Shown: positions 2,203 through 11,093, numbered from the stretch's first letter. The stretch is 64,000 bases of DNA from Verrucomicrobiota bacterium (GCA_049510395.1 JBEKYY010000016.1:3095-67094); one strand, 5' to 3'. The notes: generated by a model from the letters alone, not told the origin. Made by a program: numbers and translations.

Positions 2203-3285
2203 GTGAAAAAAGCCGTTGGATTCATGGTGGGAATTTTGTTGTTTGGCTCCGCCTTTTTTCCGGCCCAAGCCGCTTTCACGTCGCTCTATGTCTTTGGTGA
2301 TAGCCTTTCCGCTGCGTCAAACAATGTGCCAATCGGACCGTATGGCTACGGCGATCGCTGGTCCAACGGCCGGGTTTGGGTGGAAGTGCTGGCGCAACGC
2401 CAAGGGCTGCCTTTCAACCCTTCCAATAACATTTCCTTTTTCGGCAACATCAGTGGCAATATGGTGGACGAGGTCAATAGCTTCACCCCGCCAGCGCCGG
2501 CGAGCAACGTGCTGGTGGTCATTTGGGTCAACAATGCTGATTTGTATTATCCGGCGACGGCCTCCCCACCGACCTTGGAGGGTTTTAATACCGTCATCAA
2601 CCAGGCACAAACCAACCATTACAAAGCCATTACCAACCTTTATGCCAAGGGCATTCGCACCTTGATCATGCCCAATGTCGTGGATATTTCCACCATTCCC
2701 GCATTTAATAAGTTCACTGCCTATACGAACTTGTTTCATCAGGCTTCCACGAATTACAACGCTGCCTTTTATGCCACGTTGAACCGTGTCCGAACCAATT
2801 CCAGCTACTCCGGCCTTACCATTTATATTCCCGATTTCTTCGCCCTGCTCACAAATCTGCTGACGTATCCCACCAACTACGTAGTGACCAACGCCCTTAA
2901 GAATAAATTAAGTATTGACGCCCTAGGCTACCTGGGGAACCCATCTTTGACGAATGGCCCTGGCACGAACTACATTTTTTGGGATGCACAGGATCCGACC
3001 GCAATGGTCCATATGTGGATGGCCAATACCGCCCAGCAACTCATCTCGCCGGTGCGAATCAGCAAAATCACCGCACTCAACGGCAGCAACCGGCTGGATA
3101 TGGCCAATGTTCCGGTTGGCCAGAATGGTTTGGTCATTGGCCGCACGAACCTGTTGCTGGGGAACTGGACAACCAATGTGAACAATTTCAACAGTACCAA
3201 CACAACACAATCGGTCTTTGTCCCGGCCTCCGGTCCGACGTGGTTTTACCGGCTGAGCTTTCCCTACTCCTGGACCTGGCCGTAA
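2203..3285 (+). CDS. secreted SGNH/GDSL lipase-acylhydrolase with a C-terminal W...FYR module
   Basis: It has a signal peptide followed by block I, FTSLYVFGDSLS (GDS nucleophile). A GTG at 2203 precedes the hydrophobic signal. The tail is ...GNWTTNV...TWFYRLSF. Confidence 0.8.
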   Translation: MKKAVGFMVGILLFGSAFFPAQAAFTSLYVFGDSLSAASNNVPIGPYGYGDRWSNGRVWVEVLAQRQGLPFNPSNNISFFGNISGNMVDEVNSFTPPAPASNVLVVIWVNNADLYYPATASPPTLEGFNTVINQAQTNHYKAITNLYAKGIRTLIMPNVVDISTIPAFNKFTAYTNLFHQASTNYNAAFYATLNRVRTNSSYSGLTIYIPDFFALLTNLLTYPTNYVVTNALKNKLSIDALGYLGNPSLTNGPGTNYIFWDAQDPTAMVHMWMANTAQQLISPVRISKITALNGSNRLDMANVPVGQNGLVIGRTNLLLGNWTTNVNNFNSTNTTQSVFVPASGPTWFYRLSFPYSWTWP

Positions 3286-4454: not shown

Positions 4455-5027
4455 ATGCGCATCACCGGCGGCAACGCGGCGCGGCGGATTTTGAAAACGC
4501 CGAAAGGTCTGGCCGTGCGTCCCACGCCCGACCTCGTCAAGCAGGCGGTTTTCAACAGTCTTGGCGCGCGGGTTGCCGGCGCGCGCGTGCTGGAACTTTT
4601 TGCCGGCACGGGCGCGTTGAGCCTGGATTGCCTGAGCCGCGGCGCAGCGTCGGCGATGTGCATCGAGAAGTCGCACAAACACGCGGAATTCATCCGCGCC
4701 AATGCTTGCACCGCCAGCCTTGATCCGGCGCTGGAAGTGCGTGTGCAGGACGTGTTCGCCGTGCTGGCGCAATTTGCCGCCGAGGAGCGGCAATTTGATT
4801 TGATTTTGGCCGACCCGCCTTATGGCGAAAAAAACATCGGCCGCCGTTCAACTTCATTTGCGCAGCAACTGCTCGACGACCCTCATTTGCCGAAGCTGCT
4901 CGCGCCCGGCGGACGATTTGTTCTCGGTCACACGAAACGCGACACGCTGGAAATCGTTGCCCCCTGGAAAGAAGTGAAATCGCTCAAGCATGGCGACAGC
5001 CTGATGCGGTTTTTTGAGCGGGCTTAA
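4455..5027 (+). CDS. rsmD: 16S rRNA (guanine966-N2)-methyltransferase
   Basis: MRITGGNAARRILKTPKGLAVRPTPDLVKQAVFNSLG..., the SAM motif LELFAGTGALSLDCLSRGA, and the DLILADPPY (DPPY) motif. The ATG at 4455 lies inside the longer ORF 4230..5027. Confidence 0.85.
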   Translation: MRITGGNAARRILKTPKGLAVRPTPDLVKQAVFNSLGARVAGARVLELFAGTGALSLDCLSRGAASAMCIEKSHKHAEFIRANACTASLDPALEVRVQDVFAVLAQFAAEERQFDLILADPPYGEKNIGRRSTSFAQQLLDDPHLPKLLAPGGRFVLGHTKRDTLEIVAPWKEVKSLKHGDSLMRFFERA

Positions 5028-5104
5028 TTTTAAAGATCAAATTAATTTGAGATTGCATCCTCAACTCAGCTGGTTTAAAAATTTGGCTTGTTGGGAAGAA
5101 AATT

Positions 5105-7471
5105 ATGGGTTTTGATGCCAATCAACCTTCGCACCGTCAATTTCGAGAAACATTGAAGCAACGCACTGTGCCTGTGGTGGTTTGGGCTGGCGGTGGATTG
5201 AGTGCGCCTTCTGGATTGCCAAATTGGATTCAACTTCAAACGTTTTTGACGAACCGAGCGGTTGACAAGCAAGGAAGAGTAGACACAGCAGCTAGCGAAA
5301 TAATTCAGGCACATCTCAAATTAGCTCATAGCGAAAAATCGGCTTGGAAGAAATTTCAGCACCTTAAAAACGCACTTGGGAACACAGATTACACAAGTGC
5401 AATTCACGAAGCCTTTCAAGACGCCGGCAAAGCGACAATTCCGAACTTATATCTTCAATTGTGGGAACTTGGAATCAATGGTTTTTTTACTTTGAACATC
5501 GACCGTCTTGCCTCACGTGCGTTTAGCACGAGGACCCCGGGCGGTGTTTTAAGGGAATTTGAGGGGGGTAACTCACAAAGGCATGCAGACGTTTTTCTTT
5601 CTGGTCAAAAGTTTGTAGTTAATCTTCATGGAAGTATTGACGACGCGCAAAGTTGGATATTCACTGAGTCGGACTTCGAAACGTTAAGCAAAAATCCAGG
5701 TTATGATAAACTTGTGAGTGCTTGTTTTACGTCCCGTATAGTTCTGTTTGTCGGCATTTCGGCGGATGATCAAGCGGCGGGTGGCCATTTGGAAAAATTT
5801 AGGAAGCTTGGAATAAATTTAACCAATCACTTCTGGCTTACACATAAAAATGACGCGGGGACAGTTCGTTGGGCGGGAGACGTGGGGTTGAATTTAATTT
5901 TTTACGAGGCCCGAGGCGAAGATCATTCAGATATCAACGGTTTTGTTAAAGATCTCTCGCTATACATTCCGCAGGACCAAGTGCCACCACCAGTAGAACC
6001 TCCCTCGAAGAGGGAAGGCAGCTCAATTCTTCCTGCTGACGAACTTGAGCGACAACCAGCGAATAAAATTCGAATGGCTCTAAACAACGAGGCTAAAAGA
6101 ATTCTTTCATCAAACAGTGTGGCAAAAATCACGGAATATGATAAGTTTTTGTCAGAGTATGGCGAAGCCGTTTACCGTGCTTGGTCAATGAGCGTCACAC
6201 CGCAAAAAAACCTTTTTTTCAATTATTCCCTTAAACGCGTAATAGCGAAAGGTGCATTCGGTCAGGTTTTTGAAGCGATTGCGCAGGACGGAAAACACGT
6301 TGCCATTAAAATATTGCATGGCGATGTTCGCGAAGAGCCGGGTATGTTGATTAGCTTTCGTCGTGGTGTTCAGTCGATGCGAATACTTTCCGACCGTCAT
6401 GTTCCGGGAATGGTGCCATACCTTGAAGCTTGGGAGATTCCAACAAGTTCTGTTATGGAATTGGTCGATGGCCCCAACCTTGAAGATGCGGTAAGCGCGA
6501 ATTACGCTAATGATTGGGAAACACGCATGCGAATTGCTGCTGAATTGACAAAAATCATTCGCACGGCTCATAGCGTTCCAGAGCGTGTTCTTCATCGAGA
6601 CATTCGTCCTGCGAACATCATGTTAAAGGGTTATTACGACCAGACAGTCCCTTGGAAAGTAGTTGTATTGGATTTTGACCTTTCATGGCATCGCGATGCA
6701 GCAGAGGGAAGTTTAAATTTAGCGACCTCCTCCAATGGCTATTTATCGCCTGAATAAATTGATCCTTCGCGAAAGAAGTTAACTCGTAATGCGCTTGTCG
6801 ATTCGTATGGAATTGGGATGACGGTTTTTTTCCTGATTACAGGGAAACACCCTAAAGTGGGACAACATCTCTACGCCAACTGGGGTAAATTGCTCGCTGA
6901 AAAAGTTTGTTCAATTAGGTGTGTATTTTGGAATTCCTTACCATGTAGAATGGCTAGATTAATAGATTGGTCGACAAAAGATAACCAATCTGAACGTTGG
7001 GATGTGACAAGAATACATGGTGAATTGATTAGGCTTTCAGAGACTCAAAAGGGAGCGAGTTACGTTACATCGGCCGAAATGTTTGCTGAAGAAATTGTGG
7101 CTCGCTGTTCCGAGTTAGTTTCAATTTATACGTGGGACGACCAAAAGCTCTCTGCGTTGTCCGAATTGAGATCAGGTTTTACAATCCGTGTGGTTGGTGA
7201 TGAGTCTGAAAAGAGAGTTGAGGTTTATATCGACTGGATGCAGACAGGTGAGCGCAAATATGAAAACGTAAGAAAGTATATCGATACTGCCGCAGAAAAA
7301 AGTTGTTCGCGTCTCAAGAAAGGAGCGTGGAAAATATCACGTCGAGGGATTGCTCTTGGTGAGTGCCACATTGAGGCAGAAATAACTATTCCCGAATTGC
7401 GAAAGCCGGGACTTTTGGATGCTGCAGCGACTAGTCTAAACGAATCCATCTCCGCACTGCATTTTGGTTAA
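5105..7471 (+). pseudogene. SIR2-like (SIR2_2-type) domain fused to a Ser/Thr protein kinase domain and an unknown C-terminal domain; interrupted by one in-frame TAA at 6755..6757
   Basis: ORFs 5105..6757 and 6818..7471 are in the same frame. Reading through gives ...GYLSPE*IDPSRKKLTRNALVDSYGIGMTVFFLITGKHP, so the stop falls between kinase subdomain VIII (SPE=APE) and IX (DxxxxG). SIR2 blocks are VVWAGGGLSAPSGLPNW, FTLNIDRL, NLHGS and LFVGISADD. Kinase blocks are AKGAFGQV, VAIKIL, HRDIRPANIM and LDFDLS. G+C is markedly lower than in the flanking genes. Confidence 0.7.
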
Positions 7472-7479
7472 GTTAATAT

Positions 7480-8691
7480 TCAAGTTTTCGAAACTTGCTC
7501 GACCTCGTATCGGATTTCGTTTTTGAATCTGTCTACACCCTGGCCAAACGCGGCGGAGATGGGCAGCAACGAAACTTTGCGAATCTTCTTTTTGAACTGC
7601 TTCAAATTCTTTTCGGCCACCACCTCATCCATTTTGTTCGCAACCACCAGGCGCGGTCTTTCAAGCAACGCCGGGTCATAAAGTTCCAATTCGTTGAGCA
7701 ATTGTTTGTAATCGTCCCACGGCGCGCGGTTGTCCGTGCCCGCCATGTCGAGCAGCAGCACGAGGATTTTGCAACGCTCGATGTGCCGCAAAAAAGCGTG
7801 GCCGAGGCCGACATTACGGTGCGCGCCCTCGATCAAGCCCGGCACGTCACAGACCGTGAGCCGGTGCCAGTCGGCATATTCCACGATGCCGATTTGCGGG
7901 TGCAGCGTCGTGAACGGATACGGCGCAACTTTCGGGCGCGCCTTGGAAATGGCTGTGAGCAGCGTGGACTTGCCCGCGTTCGGATAGCCGACCAGCCCGA
8001 CTTCGGCCATGATGCGCAGCTCCAACAGATAATCGCCTTCCTCGCCCGGCTCGCCTGGCTGGGCGAAACGCGGCGTCTGGCGCGCGGCCGTCGCAAAGTT
8101 CCGGTTGCCCAATCCGCCGCGACCGCCTTTGCACAAAACAAATCGCTGGCCATGTTGGGTGAGGTCGGTGACCAGTTCGCCTTTTTCCTGATTGCCGGCG
8201 GAAGATTCTCCGGTGTTTTCCTGGCTCAAATCAATTTCTTGAGCCATGATTCCGCTCGCGCTGCGGATTAAAGGCCGCCGGCTCGCGCTGGTGGCAAACA
8301 AAGAAGATGACGACCCCTCGCCCTGTCCCTCTCCCCGTTTGGCGGGGAGAGGGTGGCCTTCAGGCCGGGAGAGGGGATTTTCTCCAACGCCGCCGGCCAA
8401 CCGCCAAACCAGCGTGCCGCATGGCACTTTGATGACGAGGTCCTTGCCCGCGTGGCCGTCCATGCCCTTGCCCATGCCCGCCTCGCCGGCCGGGGCGATG
8501 AGGCGCGGCTGATAATACTGGGCGATGAGGTTGTTGAGATCGTGGTCGGCCTGCAAAATCACGCTGCCGCCGCGCCCGCCGTTGCCGCCGCTGGGGCCGC
8601 CCTTGGCGACGTAAGCCTCGCGATGGAACGCGACACAGCCTTTGCCGCCGTGCCCCGCGCTCGCGTAAATTTTGATCTCGTCAACAAACAT
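7480..8691 (-). CDS. obg: GTPase Obg/CgtA with a roughly 75-aa insertion in the Obg fold
   Basis: MFVDEIKIYASAGHGGKGCVAFHREAYVAKGGPSGGNGGRGGSV, G1 motif GYPNAGKSTLL, and DVPGLIEGA. It follows rplU-rpmA in the conserved order. Confidence 0.95.
   Translation of the reverse strand: MFVDEIKIYASAGHGGKGCVAFHREAYVAKGGPSGGNGGRGGSVILQADHDLNNLIAQYYQPRLIAPAGEAGMGKGMDGHAGKDLVIKVPCGTLVWRLAGGVGENPLSRPEGHPLPAKRGEGQGEGSSSSLFATSASRRPLIRSASGIMAQEIDLSQENTGESSAGNQEKGELVTDLTQHGQRFVLCKGGRGGLGNRNFATAARQTPRFAQPGEPGEEGDYLLELRIMAEVGLVGYPNAGKSTLLTAISKARPKVAPYPFTTLHPQIGIVEYADWHRLTVCDVPGLIEGAHRNVGLGHAFLRHIERCKILVLLLDMAGTDNRAPWDDYKQLLNELELYDPALLERPRLVVANKMDEVVAEKNLKQFKKKIRKVSLLPISAAFGQGVDRFKNEIRYEVEQVSKT
8327..8353. repeat. 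family D hairpin CCCTCTCCCCG-TTTGG-CGGGGAGAGGG inside the obg coding sequence
   Basis: A perfect 11-bp inverted repeat with a 5-nt loop. The same hairpin (same loop) occurs at 45337..45363, and variants occur at 24023..24050, 24099..24125 and 45393..45420. Confidence 0.85.
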
Positions 8692-9141: not shown

Positions 9142-9453
9142 TTACGCCTTGATTTTCTTGATCTTGACCACCGTCAATTCCTGGCGATGTCCGATGGTTT
9201 TATGATAGCCCTCGCGGCGTATCATTTTGAAAGTAAGCTTTTTTTCGCCGCGCTTGTGCGCCACCACGTCGGCCAGCACGCTCGCGCCGCTGACCGTGGG
9301 GGTGCCGACCACGACCTTGCCGTCGCGATTGACCAGCAACACGCGGTCAAAGGTGACCGGCTTGCCGGTTTCGACGGCCAGACGTTCGATTTCCAGCGTG
9401 TCGCCCGCGGCGACTCGATATTGTTTGCTGCCTGTTTCTAGAACGGCGTACAT
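9142..9453 (-). CDS. rplU: 50S ribosomal protein L21
   Basis: MYAVLETGSKQYRVAAGDTLEIERL... from the ATG at 9453, inside the longer ORF 9142..9531. Confidence 0.95.
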   Translation of the reverse strand: MYAVLETGSKQYRVAAGDTLEIERLAVETGKPVTFDRVLLVNRDGKVVVGTPTVSGASVLADVVAHKRGEKKLTFKMIRREGYHKTIGHRQELTVVKIKKIKA

Positions 9454-9477
9454 AAATTGACCCGCAAAGGGCTGGAT

Positions 9478-9506
9478 ATTAAGCCAGAACTGTGCCGGGC
9501 TGTCAA
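9478..9506 (-). promoter_or_regulatory. candidate sigma70-type promoter for rplU-rpmA
   Basis: On the minus strand: TTGACA (9506..9501), a 17-nt spacer, then CTTAAT (9483..9478). It lies about 25 nt upstream of the rplU ATG. Confidence 0.35.
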
Positions 9507-9671
9507 CGCAGGATTTATTTGGAAATCGCATGATTCGTGTAGCGTCGAGCCTGTGGCTCGATTGAATTGGCGCACAACACCGGCGCTAAAAATCATGCTA
9601 AAAAGCAAGTATTTATTGTTTATCAATAAAAAAAACTTGACTAACGGAATTGATGGGCGTATTCGTTGCGC

Positions 9672-10193
9672 ATGAATGCGAATAAAATTTCTCCGAAGGC
9701 CAATGCGCGGATGAGTCGAATCAAAAAGATAATCAGGGTTATCAGGTTTTTGATCAGTGCAACCATAATTTTTGCGATCGTGTTTGGTTCGGTATTCTTG
9801 GCCGATCTCGCTGGCGTCCACATTATTCCGTCGGGAGTAAAAATCTCATTTTCCCCGTTGTTGACTTATAGTTCACCATTCAAGATACCGGTGGTCGTGC
9901 TTGTCCTGGCCTTTCTCCGTGCGGGCCTGTTTTTTGTGGGGGCTCTTGTCCTGTTCTGGCTGCTTGATCTCTTTGAGGCAGGGAAATTTTTCACCGGTCA
10001 AAATGTTCATTACATCAAACTGCTTGGCTGGTTTGTATTGAGTGACTGGGTGGTTCTTCGACTTCTGGATGTGCTGGCACATGGATTGAGCCCGGACCCG
10101 GTGGAACTTGCTGTTGGACTTCTCATTGTATTGATTGCCTGGATCATGGATGAAGGCCGGAAGATTCAGGAGGAACAGGAATTGACGGTTTAA
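9672..10193 (+). CDS. DUF2975-type multi-pass membrane protein
   Basis: Four hydrophobic spans and the C-terminal ...VLIAWIMDEGRKIQEEQELTV. It is immediately followed by a YozG-like HTH gene, which is the usual DUF2975 partner. Confidence 0.65.
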   Translation: MNANKISPKANARMSRIKKIIRVIRFLISATIIFAIVFGSVFLADLAGVHIIPSGVKISFSPLLTYSSPFKIPVVVLVLAFLRAGLFFVGALVLFWLLDLFEAGKFFTGQNVHYIKLLGWFVLSDWVVLRLLDVLAHGLSPDPVELAVGLLIVLIAWIMDEGRKIQEEQELTV

Positions 10194-10197
10194 GTTT

Positions 10198-10434
10198 ATG
10201 CCCATCATCGTCAATCTCGACGTGGTTCTCGCCCAGCGCAAAATGCGGCTGAACGATCTGGCGGAAGCCGTGGACATCACGCCGCAAAATCTTTCCATCC
10301 TCAAAACCGGCAAAGCCAGGGCCATCCGCTTCTCCACGCTCGAAGCGATTTGCGCCCATCTCGAATGCCAGCCGGCCGACATTTTGGAATATCGTCCGGA
10401 AGCCGAGAAAAAGAAGCTGCCCGTGCGAACCTAA
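10198..10434 (+). CDS. XRE/Cro-type HTH transcriptional regulator (YozG-like)
   Basis: MPIIVNLDVVLAQRKMRLNDLAEAVDITPQNLSILKTGKARAIRFSTLEAICAHLECQPADILEY. Confidence 0.85.
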   Translation: MPIIVNLDVVLAQRKMRLNDLAEAVDITPQNLSILKTGKARAIRFSTLEAICAHLECQPADILEYRPEAEKKKLPVRT

Positions 10435-11093
10435 GCCTGCGAACTCCGCCGTTCCTGTTTGCGAAACTGCTGTTCGCGACGTTTGGTTTCACCGCTCAAC
10501 AATTCCTCCGCCGACCAGCCGCGCAATTGGGCAAATTCCGCCAACTCAAATAGCTCGCGCGCCAAAGCAGTTTTGGTGAGTCGGCGTTTGAAATTTGGGC
10601 CGGCCGAAGGAATTTTTGCTTTGCGCGCCTTTTTCACGAGTTTTTCCGCGCGCAGCAGCGCGGGCAGATGCTTCGGGATACCGTCAAGGGCGGAATGGCG
10701 GGCGTGTTTGGTGCCGTGCTTTTCCGCCTTTTTGATTTTTTCCCAGTTCGCCCAGACTTCATCCACGTCCTTGACCCTCGTCGTGCCAAAGACGTGCGGG
10801 TGCCGGCGGACGAGTTTATTCACGAGCACCCGGCAGACTTTTTCGAAGTCAAACGCGCCGCGTTCCTTCGCCAACTGGCAGTGGAAGACAATTTGCAGCA
10901 GCAAATCGCCGAGTTCCTCCACCATTTCATGGTCGTCGCCGGCTTCGATGGCGTCAATCAGTTCGTAAACTTCCTCAATGGCATGACGCCGCAGCGTCCG
11001 ATGGCTCTGCTGGCGGTCCCATGGACAGCCCGTGGGTGAGCGCAGTCGGGCCATGACTTTTAACAAATCGTTTATCGCAGATGGTTTTTTCAT
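10431..11093 (-). CDS. mazG: nucleoside triphosphate pyrophosphohydrolase MazG
   Basis: LRSPTGCPWDRQQSHRTLRRHAIEEVYELIDAIEAGD...ELGDLLLQIVFH. Confidence 0.9.
   Translation of the reverse strand: MKKPSAINDLLKVMARLRSPTGCPWDRQQSHRTLRRHAIEEVYELIDAIEAGDDHEMVEELGDLLLQIVFHCQLAKERGAFDFEKVCRVLVNKLVRRHPHVFGTTRVKDVDEVWANWEKIKKAEKHGTKHARHSALDGIPKHLPALLRAEKLVKKARKAKIPSAGPNFKRRLTKTALARELFELAEFAQLRGWSAEELLSGETKRREQQFRKQERRSSQA

What the first reader, a model, noticed from the sequence alone, without database searches (positions are those of the whole stretch)
5030..7480. Low-G+C islet encoding a SIR2-like/Ser-Thr kinase fusion protein split by a single in-frame TAA: candidate inactivated single-gene defense system
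**Seen in the sequence.** A ~2.4-kb stretch of clearly lower G+C is wedged between rsmD and the 3' end of obg, with only 8 bp to the obg stop. ORFs 5105..6757 and 6818..7471 share one reading frame. The only interruption is the TAA at 6755..6757, which falls inside the kinase domain between the SPE (APE) motif and the DxxxxG motif of subdomain IX. The conceptual product is therefore one ~788-aa protein.

**Domain content.** The N-terminal ~270 aa has the SIR2_2-type pattern: GGG-S-x-x-SGLP-x-W, TLNID, LHGS, VGIS-x-DD, with the Asn and His that NADase-type sirtuins need. The kinase has an intact G-loop, VAIK Lys, HRDxxxxN and DFD. The last ~130 aa match nothing I recognise.

**Established knowledge.** SIR2_2 domains act as NAD+-depleting effectors in Thoeris ThsA, DSR1/DSR2, SIR2-HerA and SPARSA. 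Ser/Thr kinases also occur as phage sensors or effectors.

**Inference.** A SIR2-kinase fusion on a foreign-looking islet is a plausible abortive-infection module whose toxicity may have selected for the nonsense mutation. I do not know of a characterised SIR2-STK single-protein system.
Basis: partly seen in the sequence, partly recalled or inferred. Interest (0 to 1): 0.75.

Follow-up and report, generated by a model that had tools for sequence, protein, structure and literature searches.

The report
Nonsense-killed SIR2–kinase candidate phage-defence gene
A foreign, AT-rich single gene wedged between two housekeeping genes is a recently inactivated copy of a widespread but uncharacterised bacterial protein that fuses an NAD-destroying SIR2 domain to a protein kinase, and it most likely belongs to a new type of suicide-style anti-virus system.

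Summary
ORFs 5105..6757 and 6818..7471 share one frame, broken only by TAA 6755-6757. That codon replaces a Gln (APE-Q) conserved in at least 90% of homologues. The stop is real: ten independent metagenome assemblies carry it with no other change in the islet.

The repaired 788-aa protein has three domains:
- a SIR2_2 domain whose fold is closest to the DSR2 NADase;
- a complete Hanks Ser/Thr kinase;
- a C-terminal domain with a type III secretion chaperone-like fold.

It belongs to a uniform family of about 785-790 aa. The family has up to 1,310 clusters at 50% identity and occurs in 357 of 185,579 species genomes, across at least 15 phyla as I read the record titles. It has no conserved partner gene. 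Its G+C is almost always below that of its flanks (median -11 points), and copies are often broken (about 17 of 80).

Intact copies sit inside type I R-M operons, beside other R-M systems, in a TIR/Septu/toxin-antitoxin island and on integrative elements. Others sit as lone islets among housekeeping genes.

No curated model or searchable paper describes the family. Best reading: a dead copy of a stand-alone, abortive-infection-type defence gene. Defence function and mechanism are inferred, not shown.

The parts
5019..7479 (.). Low-G+C single-gene islet inserted at the convergent rsmD|obg junction
   Evidence: G+C is about 0.44 and GC3 0.39, against 0.61-0.63 and 0.71-0.74 in the flanks. Homology of the rsmD 3' end to relatives stops at about 5018. 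The empty site is seen in L099, and L098 carries a different cargo there, a 116-aa ORF. There are no terminal repeats.
5105..6757 (+). Upstream ORF (550 aa plus premature TAA): SIR2 domain, linker, and the kinase through the APE motif
   Evidence: The exact 550-aa product (P0002) was found on at least 23 contigs.
5105..5974 (+). SIR2_2-type domain (residues ~1-290) with GxGxS, catalytic N131 and H175
   Evidence: Pfam PF13289, E 2.9e-18. PADLOC SIR2-type LmuA model, residues 24-275. In the AF2 model of the orthologue, the SIR2 part is closest to the DSR2 SIR2 domain (8wyc_C, TMt 0.74). N131 and H175 are invariant in 66 sequences.
5975..6223 (+). Pro-rich linker and helical N-terminal extension of the kinase (residues ~291-373)
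   Evidence: The AF2 model shows helices at 320-335 and 342-359 with pLDDT above 84. R323, L326, N327 and A330 are conserved.
6224..7054 (+). Hanks-type Ser/Thr kinase domain (residues ~374-650), interrupted at codon 551
   Evidence: Pfam Pkinase, E 6.6e-23. Fold matches Stk1/PknB at TMt 0.71-0.77. K402, H497-R498-D499, N504, D523-F524-D525, P549-E550, D566 and R631 are invariant.
6755..6757 (+). Premature stop TAA replacing the conserved Gln551 (APE-Q); most simply CAA>TAA
   Evidence: The family consensus is GYLAPEQ, with Q conserved in at least 90% of sequences. The stop is present in all 10 population contigs.
6818..7471 (+). Downstream ORF (217 aa) from an internal Met: the kinase C-lobe remainder plus the C-terminal domain. 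It is not an independent gene.
   Evidence: It aligns in register with residues 572-788 of full-length homologues.
7067..7468 (+). C-terminal alpha/beta domain (residues ~655-788) with a type III secretion class I chaperone-like fold
   Evidence: AF2 model of window 7046-7471 has pLDDT 93.7. Foldseek against PDB gives Spa15 1ry9, ExsC 3kxy and SchA 4g6t, with E 2e-4 to 7e-4 and TM about 0.5. There are no sequence-level matches.
4455..5027 (+). rsmD-like methyltransferase (left flank, host gene)
   Evidence: Pfam Cons_hypoth95 on the identical gene in L002. ORF.
7480..8691 (-). obg GTPase (right flank, host gene)
   Evidence: Pfam GTP1_OBG/MMR_HSR1. Homologues at 80-90% identity in Verrucomicrobiota.

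Best explanation
**What it is.** Window 5019-7479 is a horizontally acquired one-gene islet. It carries a copy of a stand-alone three-domain protein that was inactivated recently by one nonsense mutation (Gln551>TAA). The domains are an N-terminal DSR2-like SIR2 NADase, a central catalytically complete Hanks Ser/Thr kinase, and a C-terminal type III secretion chaperone-like domain.

**What the family probably does (inferred).** The intact family most likely acts as a single-gene, abortive-infection-type anti-phage system.

**Proposed mechanism (inferred).**
1. The kinase and C-terminal module hold the protein in a compact, autoinhibited state.
2. An infection cue is sensed through protein or peptide binding, or dimerisation, by the chaperone-like domain, and/or through phosphorylation.
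3. The kinase switches on and the SIR2 domain is released.
4. The SIR2 domain hydrolyses NAD+ and stops growth of the infected cell. The kinase may also phosphorylate host or phage proteins.

**The window copy.** The stop removes kinase helices alphaF-alphaI and the whole C-terminal domain, so this allele is very probably non-functional. It is fixed in the sampled Verrucomicrobiota population.

**Shown versus inferred.** Shown here: gene anatomy, a real stop, foreign origin, family size and distribution, conserved catalytic residues, fold assignments, lack of a partner gene, and neighbourhoods. Inferred: defence role, NADase activity, the direction of signalling, and the reason for inactivation.
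For: **Anatomy and domains.**

**The stop is real and recent.**
- It is identical in 10 assemblies that are 99.7-100% identical to the window overall, with 0 SNPs inside the islet.
- The window copy deviates at only 4 of ~130 columns that are at least 90% conserved. Intact members have a median of 5 and a range of 1-13. None of the 4 lies after the stop.
- dN/dS against the 77%-identical intact orthologue is about 0.08 both before and after the stop.

**Foreign origin.**
- GC3 is 0.39 against 0.71-0.74 in the flanks.
- The empty site is seen in L099, and L098 carries a different cargo at the same junction.

**The family.**
- More than 200 full-length hits.
- Up to 1,310 representatives at E<=1e-30. 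Nearly all of the best 150 are 775-795 aa and match end to end.
- 357 of 185,579 species genomes carry a relative, spread over many phyla.
- No conserved neighbouring gene in 85 loci.
- Both active sites are invariant.

**Structure.**
- Full-length AF2 model: pLDDT 90.3, pTM 0.88.
- SIR2 part is closest to DSR2, kinase closest to Stk1/PknB.
- C-terminal domain is closest to type III secretion chaperones.

**Defence-like genomics.**
- The gene's G+C is lower than its flanks in 67 of 72 loci, with a median difference of -0.11.
- About 17 of 80 species copies are disrupted. These include 5 nonsense codons, 2 transposase-carrying insertions and 1 uncharacterised insertion; three of these eight are in cultured isolates.
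- The gene is embedded in hsdR-X-hsdM-(Fic)-hsdS operons in 3 genomes.
- It lies next to type IIG, type III-like and type IV-like R-M genes and to SspE/HEC-06-, GajB- and Hhe-like genes.
- It lies in an island with TIR, PtuA-like, MazEF and PIN genes.
- It lies on integrase/TraG/relaxase elements.

**Kinase domain.** It scores best against the PD-T4-6 and MAD6 defence kinase models in PADLOC.
Against: - No experiment exists for any family member. NADase, kinase and anti-phage activities are all unproven.
- Several intact copies sit among ordinary housekeeping or signalling genes (window; L014; L100; L102; L021 and L023).
- I could not compute a calibrated defence-island enrichment with controls. 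The Pfam survey of 148 neighbours shows no dominant family.
- The gene is nearly absent from viral contigs (2 loci), from phage records and from PLSDB plasmids.
- Some of the frameshifted copies are in long-read MAGs and may be sequencing errors.
- The chaperone-like fold match is modest (TM about 0.5).
- dS against the orthologue is saturated, so the dN/dS comparison is weak.
Confidence: 0.6

Rival explanations
1. The family is a cellular signalling enzyme, not an immune gene. A Hanks kinase would be coupled to an NAD-dependent SIR2 deacylase or ADP-ribosyltransferase that regulates host physiology. The window copy would simply be a decaying accessory gene.
For: - Some copies neighbour signalling genes: CHASE2, GGDEF/GAF and sigma-54 regulators in Corallococcus.
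- Other copies neighbour plain housekeeping genes.
- The family is common in kinase-rich phyla such as Myxococcota, Actinomycetota and Planctomycetota.
- The neighbour survey has no dominant defence family.
Against: - The domain is the SIR2_2/DSR2-like type. Pfam reports only SIR2_2, and the family alignment has no invariant Cys of the kind a sirtuin Zn module would need.
- The phyletic spread is extremely patchy, about 0.2% of species.
- G+C is systematically foreign.
- Copies are frequently disrupted.
- There is no conserved partner or operon.
- The gene is embedded within type I R-M operons and defence islands.
Confidence: 0.2
2. The interrupted gene is still functional. Either the 550-aa product (SIR2 plus a truncated kinase) works alone, or the 550-aa and 217-aa products work together, or the stop is read through. 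On this view the 'pseudogene' is a working split or deregulated variant.
For: - There is no second lesion anywhere in 2.4 kb.
- The downstream frame is fully open, and an ATG lies 61 nt after the stop.
- The allele is fixed in all sampled assemblies.
- The SIR2 domain is intact.
Against: - The stop lies inside the kinase C-lobe. It removes alphaF-alphaI, the structural core of Hanks kinases (established knowledge), and all of the C-terminal domain.
- TAA followed by A is an efficient terminator (established knowledge), and this genome uses TAA normally: rsmD and the gene itself both end in TAA.
- No obvious Shine-Dalgarno sequence is visible to me before ATG 6818.
- Apart from the window's own product, the ~520-570-aa entries among the best 150 representatives were not checked and may be contig-end fragments; the rest are full length or N-terminally cut.
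- The lack of further decay is equally explained by recency: there are 0 SNPs in the islet across the population.
Confidence: 0.1
3. The in-frame stop is a sequencing, assembly or consensus artefact, and the organism carries an ordinary intact gene.
For: Single-base errors do occur in metagenome assemblies. No reads were available to me.
Against: - The identical TAA is present in 10 contigs fetched from 10 different JGI and ENA assemblies. The exact 550-aa product is indexed on at least 23 contigs in 37 collection blocks.
- No intact allele more than 77% identical exists among 5.8 billion protein clusters.
Confidence: 0.03

Closest known systems
DSR2 (defence-associated sirtuin 2; Bacillus subtilis; PDB 8wyb/8wyc)
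   Same: Both are single-polypeptide systems with an N-terminal SIR2_2-type domain carrying the catalytic Asn/His. DSR2 is the best structural match of the SIR2 part (TMt 0.74). The presumed logic is also shared: a sensor region gates an NADase, leading to abortive infection.
   Different: DSR2 is about 1,000 aa with a long helical C-terminal sensor that binds phage tail-tube protein, and it has no kinase. Here the region after SIR2 is a Hanks kinase plus a chaperone-like domain. Sequence identity is only 10-16%.
Stand-alone defence Ser/Thr kinases (PD-T4-6; Staphylococcus Stk2; MADS MAD6)
   Same: The kinase domain scores best against the PD-T4-6 (E 4.7e-32) and mad6 (E 3.5e-28) models in PADLOC. 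Both are single-gene systems in which a Hanks kinase is thought to respond to infection.
   Different: Those proteins lack a SIR2 effector and the chaperone-like C-terminal domain. The matches cover the generic kinase fold only. The NCBIfam MAD6 score is 53 bits against a cutoff of 460.
Thoeris ThsA (SIR2-SLOG) and Lamassu LmuA-SIR2
   Same: Both have a SIR2_2 NADase effector. There are weak sequence matches to ThsA and the related USG protein in PDB (E 0.004-0.02) and to a PADLOC LmuA model (E 2.1e-17).
   Different: ThsA needs a SLOG sensor and a ThsB TIR partner. LmuA needs LmuB/LmuC partners. Here there is no SLOG domain, and no conserved neighbouring gene in 85 loci.
PrrC-type abortive-infection genes embedded in type I R-M operons
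   Same: In three genomes the gene sits between hsdR and hsdM (with a Fic gene before hsdS), like PrrC inside the EcoprrI locus (the PrrC arrangement is from my own knowledge).
   Different: The protein is unrelated: PrrC is an anticodon nuclease. Most family members are not in hsd operons.

Membership tests
Pfam SIR2_2 (PF13289) / defence-type SIR2 NADase fold | Profile match above the gathering threshold | tested here: met
   66.7 bits against a cutoff of 24.5, residues 127-250.
Pfam SIR2_2 (PF13289) / defence-type SIR2 NADase fold | Rossmann GxGxS NAD-binding loop plus catalytic Asn and His | tested here: met
   G29, G31, S33, N131 and H175 are invariant in 66 sequences and present in the window copy.
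Pfam SIR2_2 (PF13289) / defence-type SIR2 NADase fold | NAD+ hydrolase activity | not testable with these tools
   Needs biochemistry.
DSR2 | SIR2 domain structurally like that of DSR2 | tested here: met
   8wyc_C: TMt 0.74, rmsd 4.1, E 1e-9.
DSR2 | Long helical C-terminal sensor region that binds the tail-tube protein; about 1,000 aa | tested here: not met
   The region after SIR2 is a kinase plus a 135-aa alpha/beta domain.
Hanks-type (eukaryotic-like) Ser/Thr kinase | Pkinase profile plus G-loop, VAIK Lys, HRD, catalytic Asn, DFG-type Asp, APE, subdomain IX Asp and subdomain XI Arg | tested here: met
   81.9 bits against a cutoff of 31.7. G383, K402, HRD497-499, N504, DFD523-525, PE549-550, D566 and R631 are invariant. 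Fold TMt is 0.77 to Stk1.
Hanks-type (eukaryotic-like) Ser/Thr kinase | Uninterrupted catalytic domain in the window copy | tested here: not met
   TAA at codon 551 removes subdomains IX-XI.
PD-T4-6 / MAD6 defence kinases | Full-length match to the family model, or reaching a curated cutoff | tested here: not met
   Only the kinase core matches. NCBIfam antiphage_MADS6 scores 53 bits against a cutoff of 460. PADLOC has no cutoffs.
Thoeris (ThsA/ThsB) | SLOG (or Macro/TM) sensor on ThsA and an adjacent TIR ThsB gene | tested here: not met
   No SLOG or TIR in the protein. No conserved neighbour.
Lamassu (LmuA-SIR2 + LmuB/LmuC) | Adjacent SMC-like LmuB partner | tested here: not met
   No conserved neighbouring gene in 85 loci.
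Classical sirtuin deacylases (CobB/Sir2, PF02146) | PF02146 match and a Zn-binding Cys4 module | tested here: not met
   Only PF13289 is reported. No invariant Cys in the alignment.
Type III secretion class I chaperones (CesT/SycE/Spa15 fold) | alpha-beta-beta-beta-alpha-beta-beta-alpha fold | tested here: inconclusive
   The topology matches and Foldseek probability is 1.0, but TM is only about 0.5 and identity 11-13%. There is no sequence-profile hit.
Defence-island gene (operational definition) | Significant enrichment of known defence genes in the neighbourhood across the family | tested here: inconclusive
   There are many qualitative cases: R-M types I, IIG, III-like and IV-like; TIR; PtuA; Hhe; SspE-like; toxin-antitoxin pairs; integrative/conjugative elements. 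There are also housekeeping contexts, and no controlled statistic was possible.

The most novel reading that the evidence does not exclude
The family is a previously undescribed class of single-protein abortive-infection immunity. A eukaryotic-like Ser/Thr kinase and a secretion-chaperone-like sensor domain would gate a DSR2-like NADase by phosphorylation. That would be a direct kinase-to-NAD+-depletion link not known in bacterial immunity. The cost of self-activation would explain why roughly one copy in five, including this one, is found broken.
Probability: 0.4. Interest if true: 0.75.

Novelty: new variant of a known kind. Interest (0 to 1): 0.58.

Why it matters
**Current knowledge.** SIR2 NADases are recurrent effectors of bacterial immunity (DSR1/2, ThsA, SIR2-HerA, SPARSA, Avs5, Kongming). 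Each is switched on by a different sensor. Ser/Thr kinases are known separately as phage sensors or effectors (Stk2, PD-T4-6, PglW, MAD6).

**What this would add.** A protein that hard-wires the two would show how phosphorylation can control NAD+ depletion. It would add a compact, experimentally tractable single-gene system. It comes with a confident structural model, clear catalytic-dead mutants to make, and hundreds of natural variants.

**Family-level patterns.** The systematically low G+C, scattered phyletic distribution, insertion into R-M operons and recurrent nonsense or transposase-carrying insertion knock-outs make a useful case study of gain and loss of costly immune genes.

**For this genome.** The practical conclusion is that the locus is a pseudogene. 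The 550-aa 'SIR2 family protein' annotation in public records is a truncated product.

Tried and rejected
- **Structure of the repaired sequence.** I used the 77%-identical intact orthologue P0001 instead.
- **Mobile-element ends.** I looked for terminal direct or inverted repeats, or att-like sites, at the islet ends. Only short chance-level matches appeared.
- **Promoter and terminator scan.** It gave no more sites than shuffles.
- **A conserved partner gene.** All-against-all comparison of ORFs from 85 loci found none. The only recurrent 'neighbours' are antisense ORFs inside the gene itself, or synteny between close relatives.
- **Effector swapping or alternative architectures.** Apparent short variants such as P0110 are N-terminally cut fragments. 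The longer ones (P0112, P0072, P0059) only add N-terminal extensions.
- **Carriage on phages or plasmids.** There were 2 IMG/VR loci, no PLSDB plasmid, and no full-length hit in INPHARED.
- **C-terminal domain against viral structures.** Nothing reached E<=0.001.
- **Relaxed selection after the stop.** dN/dS is the same before and after it, but dS is saturated. The population contigs carry no SNPs in the islet, so this test is uninformative beyond showing the event is recent.
- **Quantitative defence-island enrichment.** This was not achievable. The batch family scans return only the 25 commonest families, and no control gene set was available.
- **Literature.** Seven searches and two papers read found no description of a SIR2-kinase fusion. 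Subscription-only papers were not searchable.


Full report
**1. The observation**

The region is as described.
- The ORF listing gives 5105..6757 (550 aa) and 6818..7471 (217 aa) on the + strand in one frame.
- Translating 5105-7474 shows a single internal stop...NGYLSPE*IDPSRKKLTRNALVDSYGIG.... The codon is TAA at 6755-6757.
- The gene ends with TAA at 7469-7471. The obg stop on the minus strand is at 7480-7482, so the gap is exactly 8 bp.
- G+C is 0.42-0.46 between 5000 and 7500, against 0.58-0.65 on both sides.
- Third-position G+C is 0.39 for the gene, against 0.71 (rsmD) and 0.74 (obg).

**2. Domain content**

I replaced the stop with Gln to give a 788-aa protein.
- Pfam reports SIR2_2 at residues 127-250 (E 2.9e-18, 66.7 bits, cutoff 24.5). 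It reports Pkinase at 374-637 (E 6.6e-23, 81.9 bits, cutoff 31.7). It reports nothing for the last ~135 residues.
- PADLOC matches are domain-level only. The kinase matches PD-T4-6 (4.7e-32) and mad6 (3.5e-28). Residues 24-275 match a SIR2-type LmuA model (2.1e-17).
- NCBIfam (June 2026) has no model that comes near its cutoff.

**3. The stop is real, recent and the only lesion**

- The exact 550-aa product (P0002) is indexed on at least 23 contigs in 37 collection blocks.
- I fetched ten loci from ten JGI and ENA assemblies. All show rsmD | 550-aa ORF | 217-aa ORF | obg.
- These loci are 99.7-100% identical to the window. They have SNPs in flanking genes but none between 5030 and 7480, and all carry the TAA.
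- In a 66-sequence alignment the stop replaces the Gln of GYLAPEQ, which is conserved in at least 90% of members. A single C>T change (CAA>TAA) is the simplest event.
- The window copy keeps every family-invariant residue. It departs from the consensus at only 4 of ~130 columns that are at least 90% conserved. Intact members have a median of 5 and a range of 1-13. None of the 4 lies after the stop.
- Against the closest intact orthologue (P0001, 77% aa and 76% nt identity, homology limited to the gene body), dN/dS is about 0.08-0.09 in the SIR2, kinase and post-stop parts alike. dS is saturated, so this test is weak.
- No intact allele closer than 77% exists in the 5.8-billion-cluster collection.

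The gene was therefore under purifying selection until very recently. The nonsense allele is fixed in the sampled population.

**4. The islet is an insertion**

- A relative whose Obg is 84% identical (L099) has obg, 123 bp, then rsmD, with nothing between them.
- Another relative (L098) has an unrelated 116-aa ORF, with no Pfam match, at the same junction.
- rsmD homology stops 2-3 codons before the window's rsmD stop.
- There are no terminal repeats, integrase or tRNA at the site.
- The closest orthologue lies on a 46% G+C contig. This is compatible with a low-G+C donor lineage.

**5. The family**

- The search for homologous proteins returned more than 200 full-length proteins of 35-77% identity with the same Pfam pair and nearly constant length.
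- A profile search of 1.84 billion cluster representatives found 1,310 with E<=1e-30. Nearly all of the best 150 are 775-795 aa and match end to end. A few carry N-terminal extensions.
- In one-genome-per-species GTDB contigs, 357 of 185,579 species encode a relative.
- By my reading of the record titles these span at least 15 phyla: Actinomycetota, Pseudomonadota, Planctomycetota, Acidobacteriota, Chloroflexota, Verrucomicrobiota, Bacteroidota, Desulfobacterota, Myxococcota, Gemmatimonadota, Armatimonadota, Thermotogota, Bacillota and others.
- All-against-all comparison of ORFs from 85 loci found no conserved neighbouring gene, so the protein is stand-alone.
- Invariant residues include G29/G31/S33, N131 and H175 in SIR2. 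In the kinase they include K402, H497-R498-D499, N504, D523-F524-D525, P549-E550, D566 and R631. Both active sites are therefore under selection.

**6. Structure**

- AlphaFold2 on P0001 with a 67-sequence alignment gave pLDDT 90.3 and pTM 0.88. Only the kinase activation loop (527-542) is disordered. This points to one compact multidomain body.
- Foldseek against PDB places the SIR2 part closest to the DSR2 SIR2 domain (8wyc_C, TMt 0.74). It places the kinase closest to Stk1/PknB/PknA (TMt 0.70-0.77).
- The window's own C-terminal 141 residues modelled at pLDDT 93.7 as alpha-beta4-alpha-beta2-alpha.
- Their best PDB matches are type III secretion class I chaperones: SchA 4g6t, ExsC 3kxy, Spa15 1ry9, SycN/YscB and VecA. 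E is 2e-4 to 2e-3, and TM is about 0.5 for most (0.36 for SchA).
- Nothing significant appeared in BFVD or by sequence.
- That fold is known for homodimerisation and for binding extended polypeptides (established knowledge). I therefore infer a role as sensor or dimerisation module.

**7. Family-wide signs of a mobile, costly gene**

*(a) Composition.* In 72 loci with enough flank, the gene's G+C minus its flanks' G+C has a median of -0.11. It is below -0.05 in 57 loci and never above +0.03. The 'low-G+C islet' is thus a property of the whole family.

*(b) Disruption.* About 17 of the 80 best species-representative loci carry disrupted copies.
- Five have in-frame stops: L026, L047, L071, L079 (Sphaerotilus sulfidivorans D-501) and L088 (Magnetospirillum fulvum DSM 13234).
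- Three are split by insertions: L036 (an ISL3-like transposase fragment), L085 (Propioniciclava sinopodophylli, a 527-aa DDE transposase) and L086 (content of the insertion not examined).
- One (L072) retains only residues 426-788.
- Eight show frameshift-like breaks. Some of these may be long-read errors.

*(c) Neighbourhoods.*
- Closest orthologue: an Eco57I-type methylase, an AccI-type endonuclease and HTH_17 genes.
- Pedosphaerales: an integrase.
- L031: an MmeI-type IIG enzyme.
- L034: a TrwC relaxase.
- L037: a type IV/PbeA-like HIT-helicase.
- L035, L044 and L045: the gene sits between hsdR and hsdM, and in L035 a Fic gene and hsdS follow.
- L054 (Roseimaritima isolate): an SspE/HEC-06-like gene, a type III-like methylase, the gene itself, a UvrD/GajB-like helicase, then a 2,075-aa Hhe/PDC-S37-like protein. 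L076 carries a related methylase directly upstream; in L084 the methylase lies one gene further up, behind a ResIII helicase.
- L101: integrase, excisionase-like HTH_17, TraG/TrwB, a helicase and PIN.
- L103: four TIR_2 proteins, a PtuA-like ATPase, MazE-PIN, MazE-PemK and IS110.
- A PADLOC scan of 148 immediate neighbours from 27 loci also hit HEC-01, DndF, LmuA and DRT models.
- In contrast, the window, L100 (dnaE), L102 (ilvC), L021, L023 and L014 show housekeeping or signalling neighbours.
- The Pfam survey has no dominant family.

The association with defence and mobile elements is frequent but not universal. I could not attach a controlled statistic to it.

**8. Mechanism**

*Shown.* There are two conserved active sites, a DSR2-like SIR2 domain, a canonical kinase, a chaperone-like C-terminal domain, a compact predicted assembly and no partner gene.

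*Inferred, by analogy with DSR2, ThsA and Avs5 (a sensor releases a SIR2 NADase) and with Stk2/PD-T4-6 (a kinase responds to a phage protein).*
1. The kinase and C-terminal module sense infection.
2. The kinase autophosphorylates.
3. The SIR2 NADase is released, NAD+ is depleted and the infection aborts.
4. The kinase may also phosphorylate other targets.

*The window allele.* It lacks kinase subdomains IX-XI and the C-terminal domain, so it should be inactive. Selection against a costly or self-toxic gene is a plausible reason for the stop, but it is untested.

**9. Comparison with known systems and novelty**

- It works like DSR-type single-protein SIR2 systems and like defence kinases. It fails the defining features of DSR2 (helical sensor), Thoeris (SLOG plus ThsB), Lamassu (LmuB) and classical sirtuins (PF02146 and a Zn module).
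- It matches PD-T4-6 and MAD6 only through the generic kinase fold.
- No curated PADLOC or NCBIfam model, and no searchable paper, describes a SIR2-kinase fusion. Subscription-only literature could not be searched.
- I rate it a new variant of a known kind: a known effector and a known sensor/enzyme class in an undescribed, widespread, fixed architecture.

**10. Verdict**

- The locus itself is a dead gene. The value lies in the family it points to.
- Interest is 0.58. It is a credible, tractable candidate for a new single-gene defence type with unusual family-level signatures, but it has no functional evidence, and defence-island association is only partial.

Noticed in passing
L098:6203-6553 and L099:6174-6296 (the junction equivalent to window 5028-7479): The convergent obg|rsmD junction is a variable spot in this Verrucomicrobiota lineage. 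It is empty (123 bp) in one relative. It holds a 116-aa ORF in another; that ORF has no Pfam match and looks hydrophobic by eye. It holds the SIR2-kinase gene in the window.
   Followed up: partly
L016-L095 (80 species-representative loci): The SIR2-kinase gene is systematically AT-richer than its flanks (median -11 G+C points; never richer by more than 3 points). About one copy in five is disrupted by nonsense codons, insertions (two carrying transposase genes) or frameshifts, including in cultured isolates (Sphaerotilus sulfidivorans D-501, Magnetospirillum fulvum DSM 13234, Propioniciclava sinopodophylli KCTC 33808).
   Followed up: yes
L035:7235-16778; also L044 and L045: In Ignavibacteria/Bacteroidota genomes the type I R-M operon reads hsdR - SIR2-kinase - hsdM - Fic/DOC gene - hsdS. 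Two putative abortive-infection-type genes are therefore nested inside one hsd operon.
   Followed up: partly
L054:1783-20753 (Roseimaritima sediminicola JC651): This is a dense defence island. It holds an unannotated 1,057-aa protein, an SspE/HEC-06-like gene, a type III-like methylase, the SIR2-kinase gene, a NERD/UvrD (GajB-like) helicase and a 2,075-aa Hhe/PDC-S37-like protein.
   Followed up: partly
L103:1-17749: This island holds four TIR_2-domain proteins (one of them TIR-TPR), a PtuA-like AAA ATPase of 885 aa, MazE-PIN and MazE-PemK pairs and an IS110 transposase, all around the SIR2-kinase gene.
   Followed up: partly
window 7480-8691 (obg, minus strand): This Obg is 403 aa and carries a low-complexity Gly/Ser/Glu-rich stretch (...GEGQGEGSSSSLFATSASRRPLIRSASGIMAQEIDLSQENTGESSAGNQEKGE...). 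It seems to sit between the Obg fold and the GTPase domain. Relatives are 385-412 aa, so it looks lineage-specific.
   Followed up: no
window ~9400-10450: A second low-G+C stretch (0.44) lies just beyond rplU. It holds a DUF2975 gene and an HTH_26 gene. In the relative L098 the same pair is accompanied by an extra aspartyl-protease-like gene.
   Followed up: no
window 2400-3000: Another dip in G+C (0.475-0.49), with strongly negative GC skew, lies upstream of the finding. It was not examined.
   Followed up: no
public records of P0002: NCBI and JGI list the 550-aa truncated product as an ordinary 'SIR2 family protein' or 'hypothetical protein'. JGI and ENA gene calls list the 217-aa remainder as a separate gene with no Pfam hit. 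The source names I saw give no sign of a pseudogene.
   Followed up: partly
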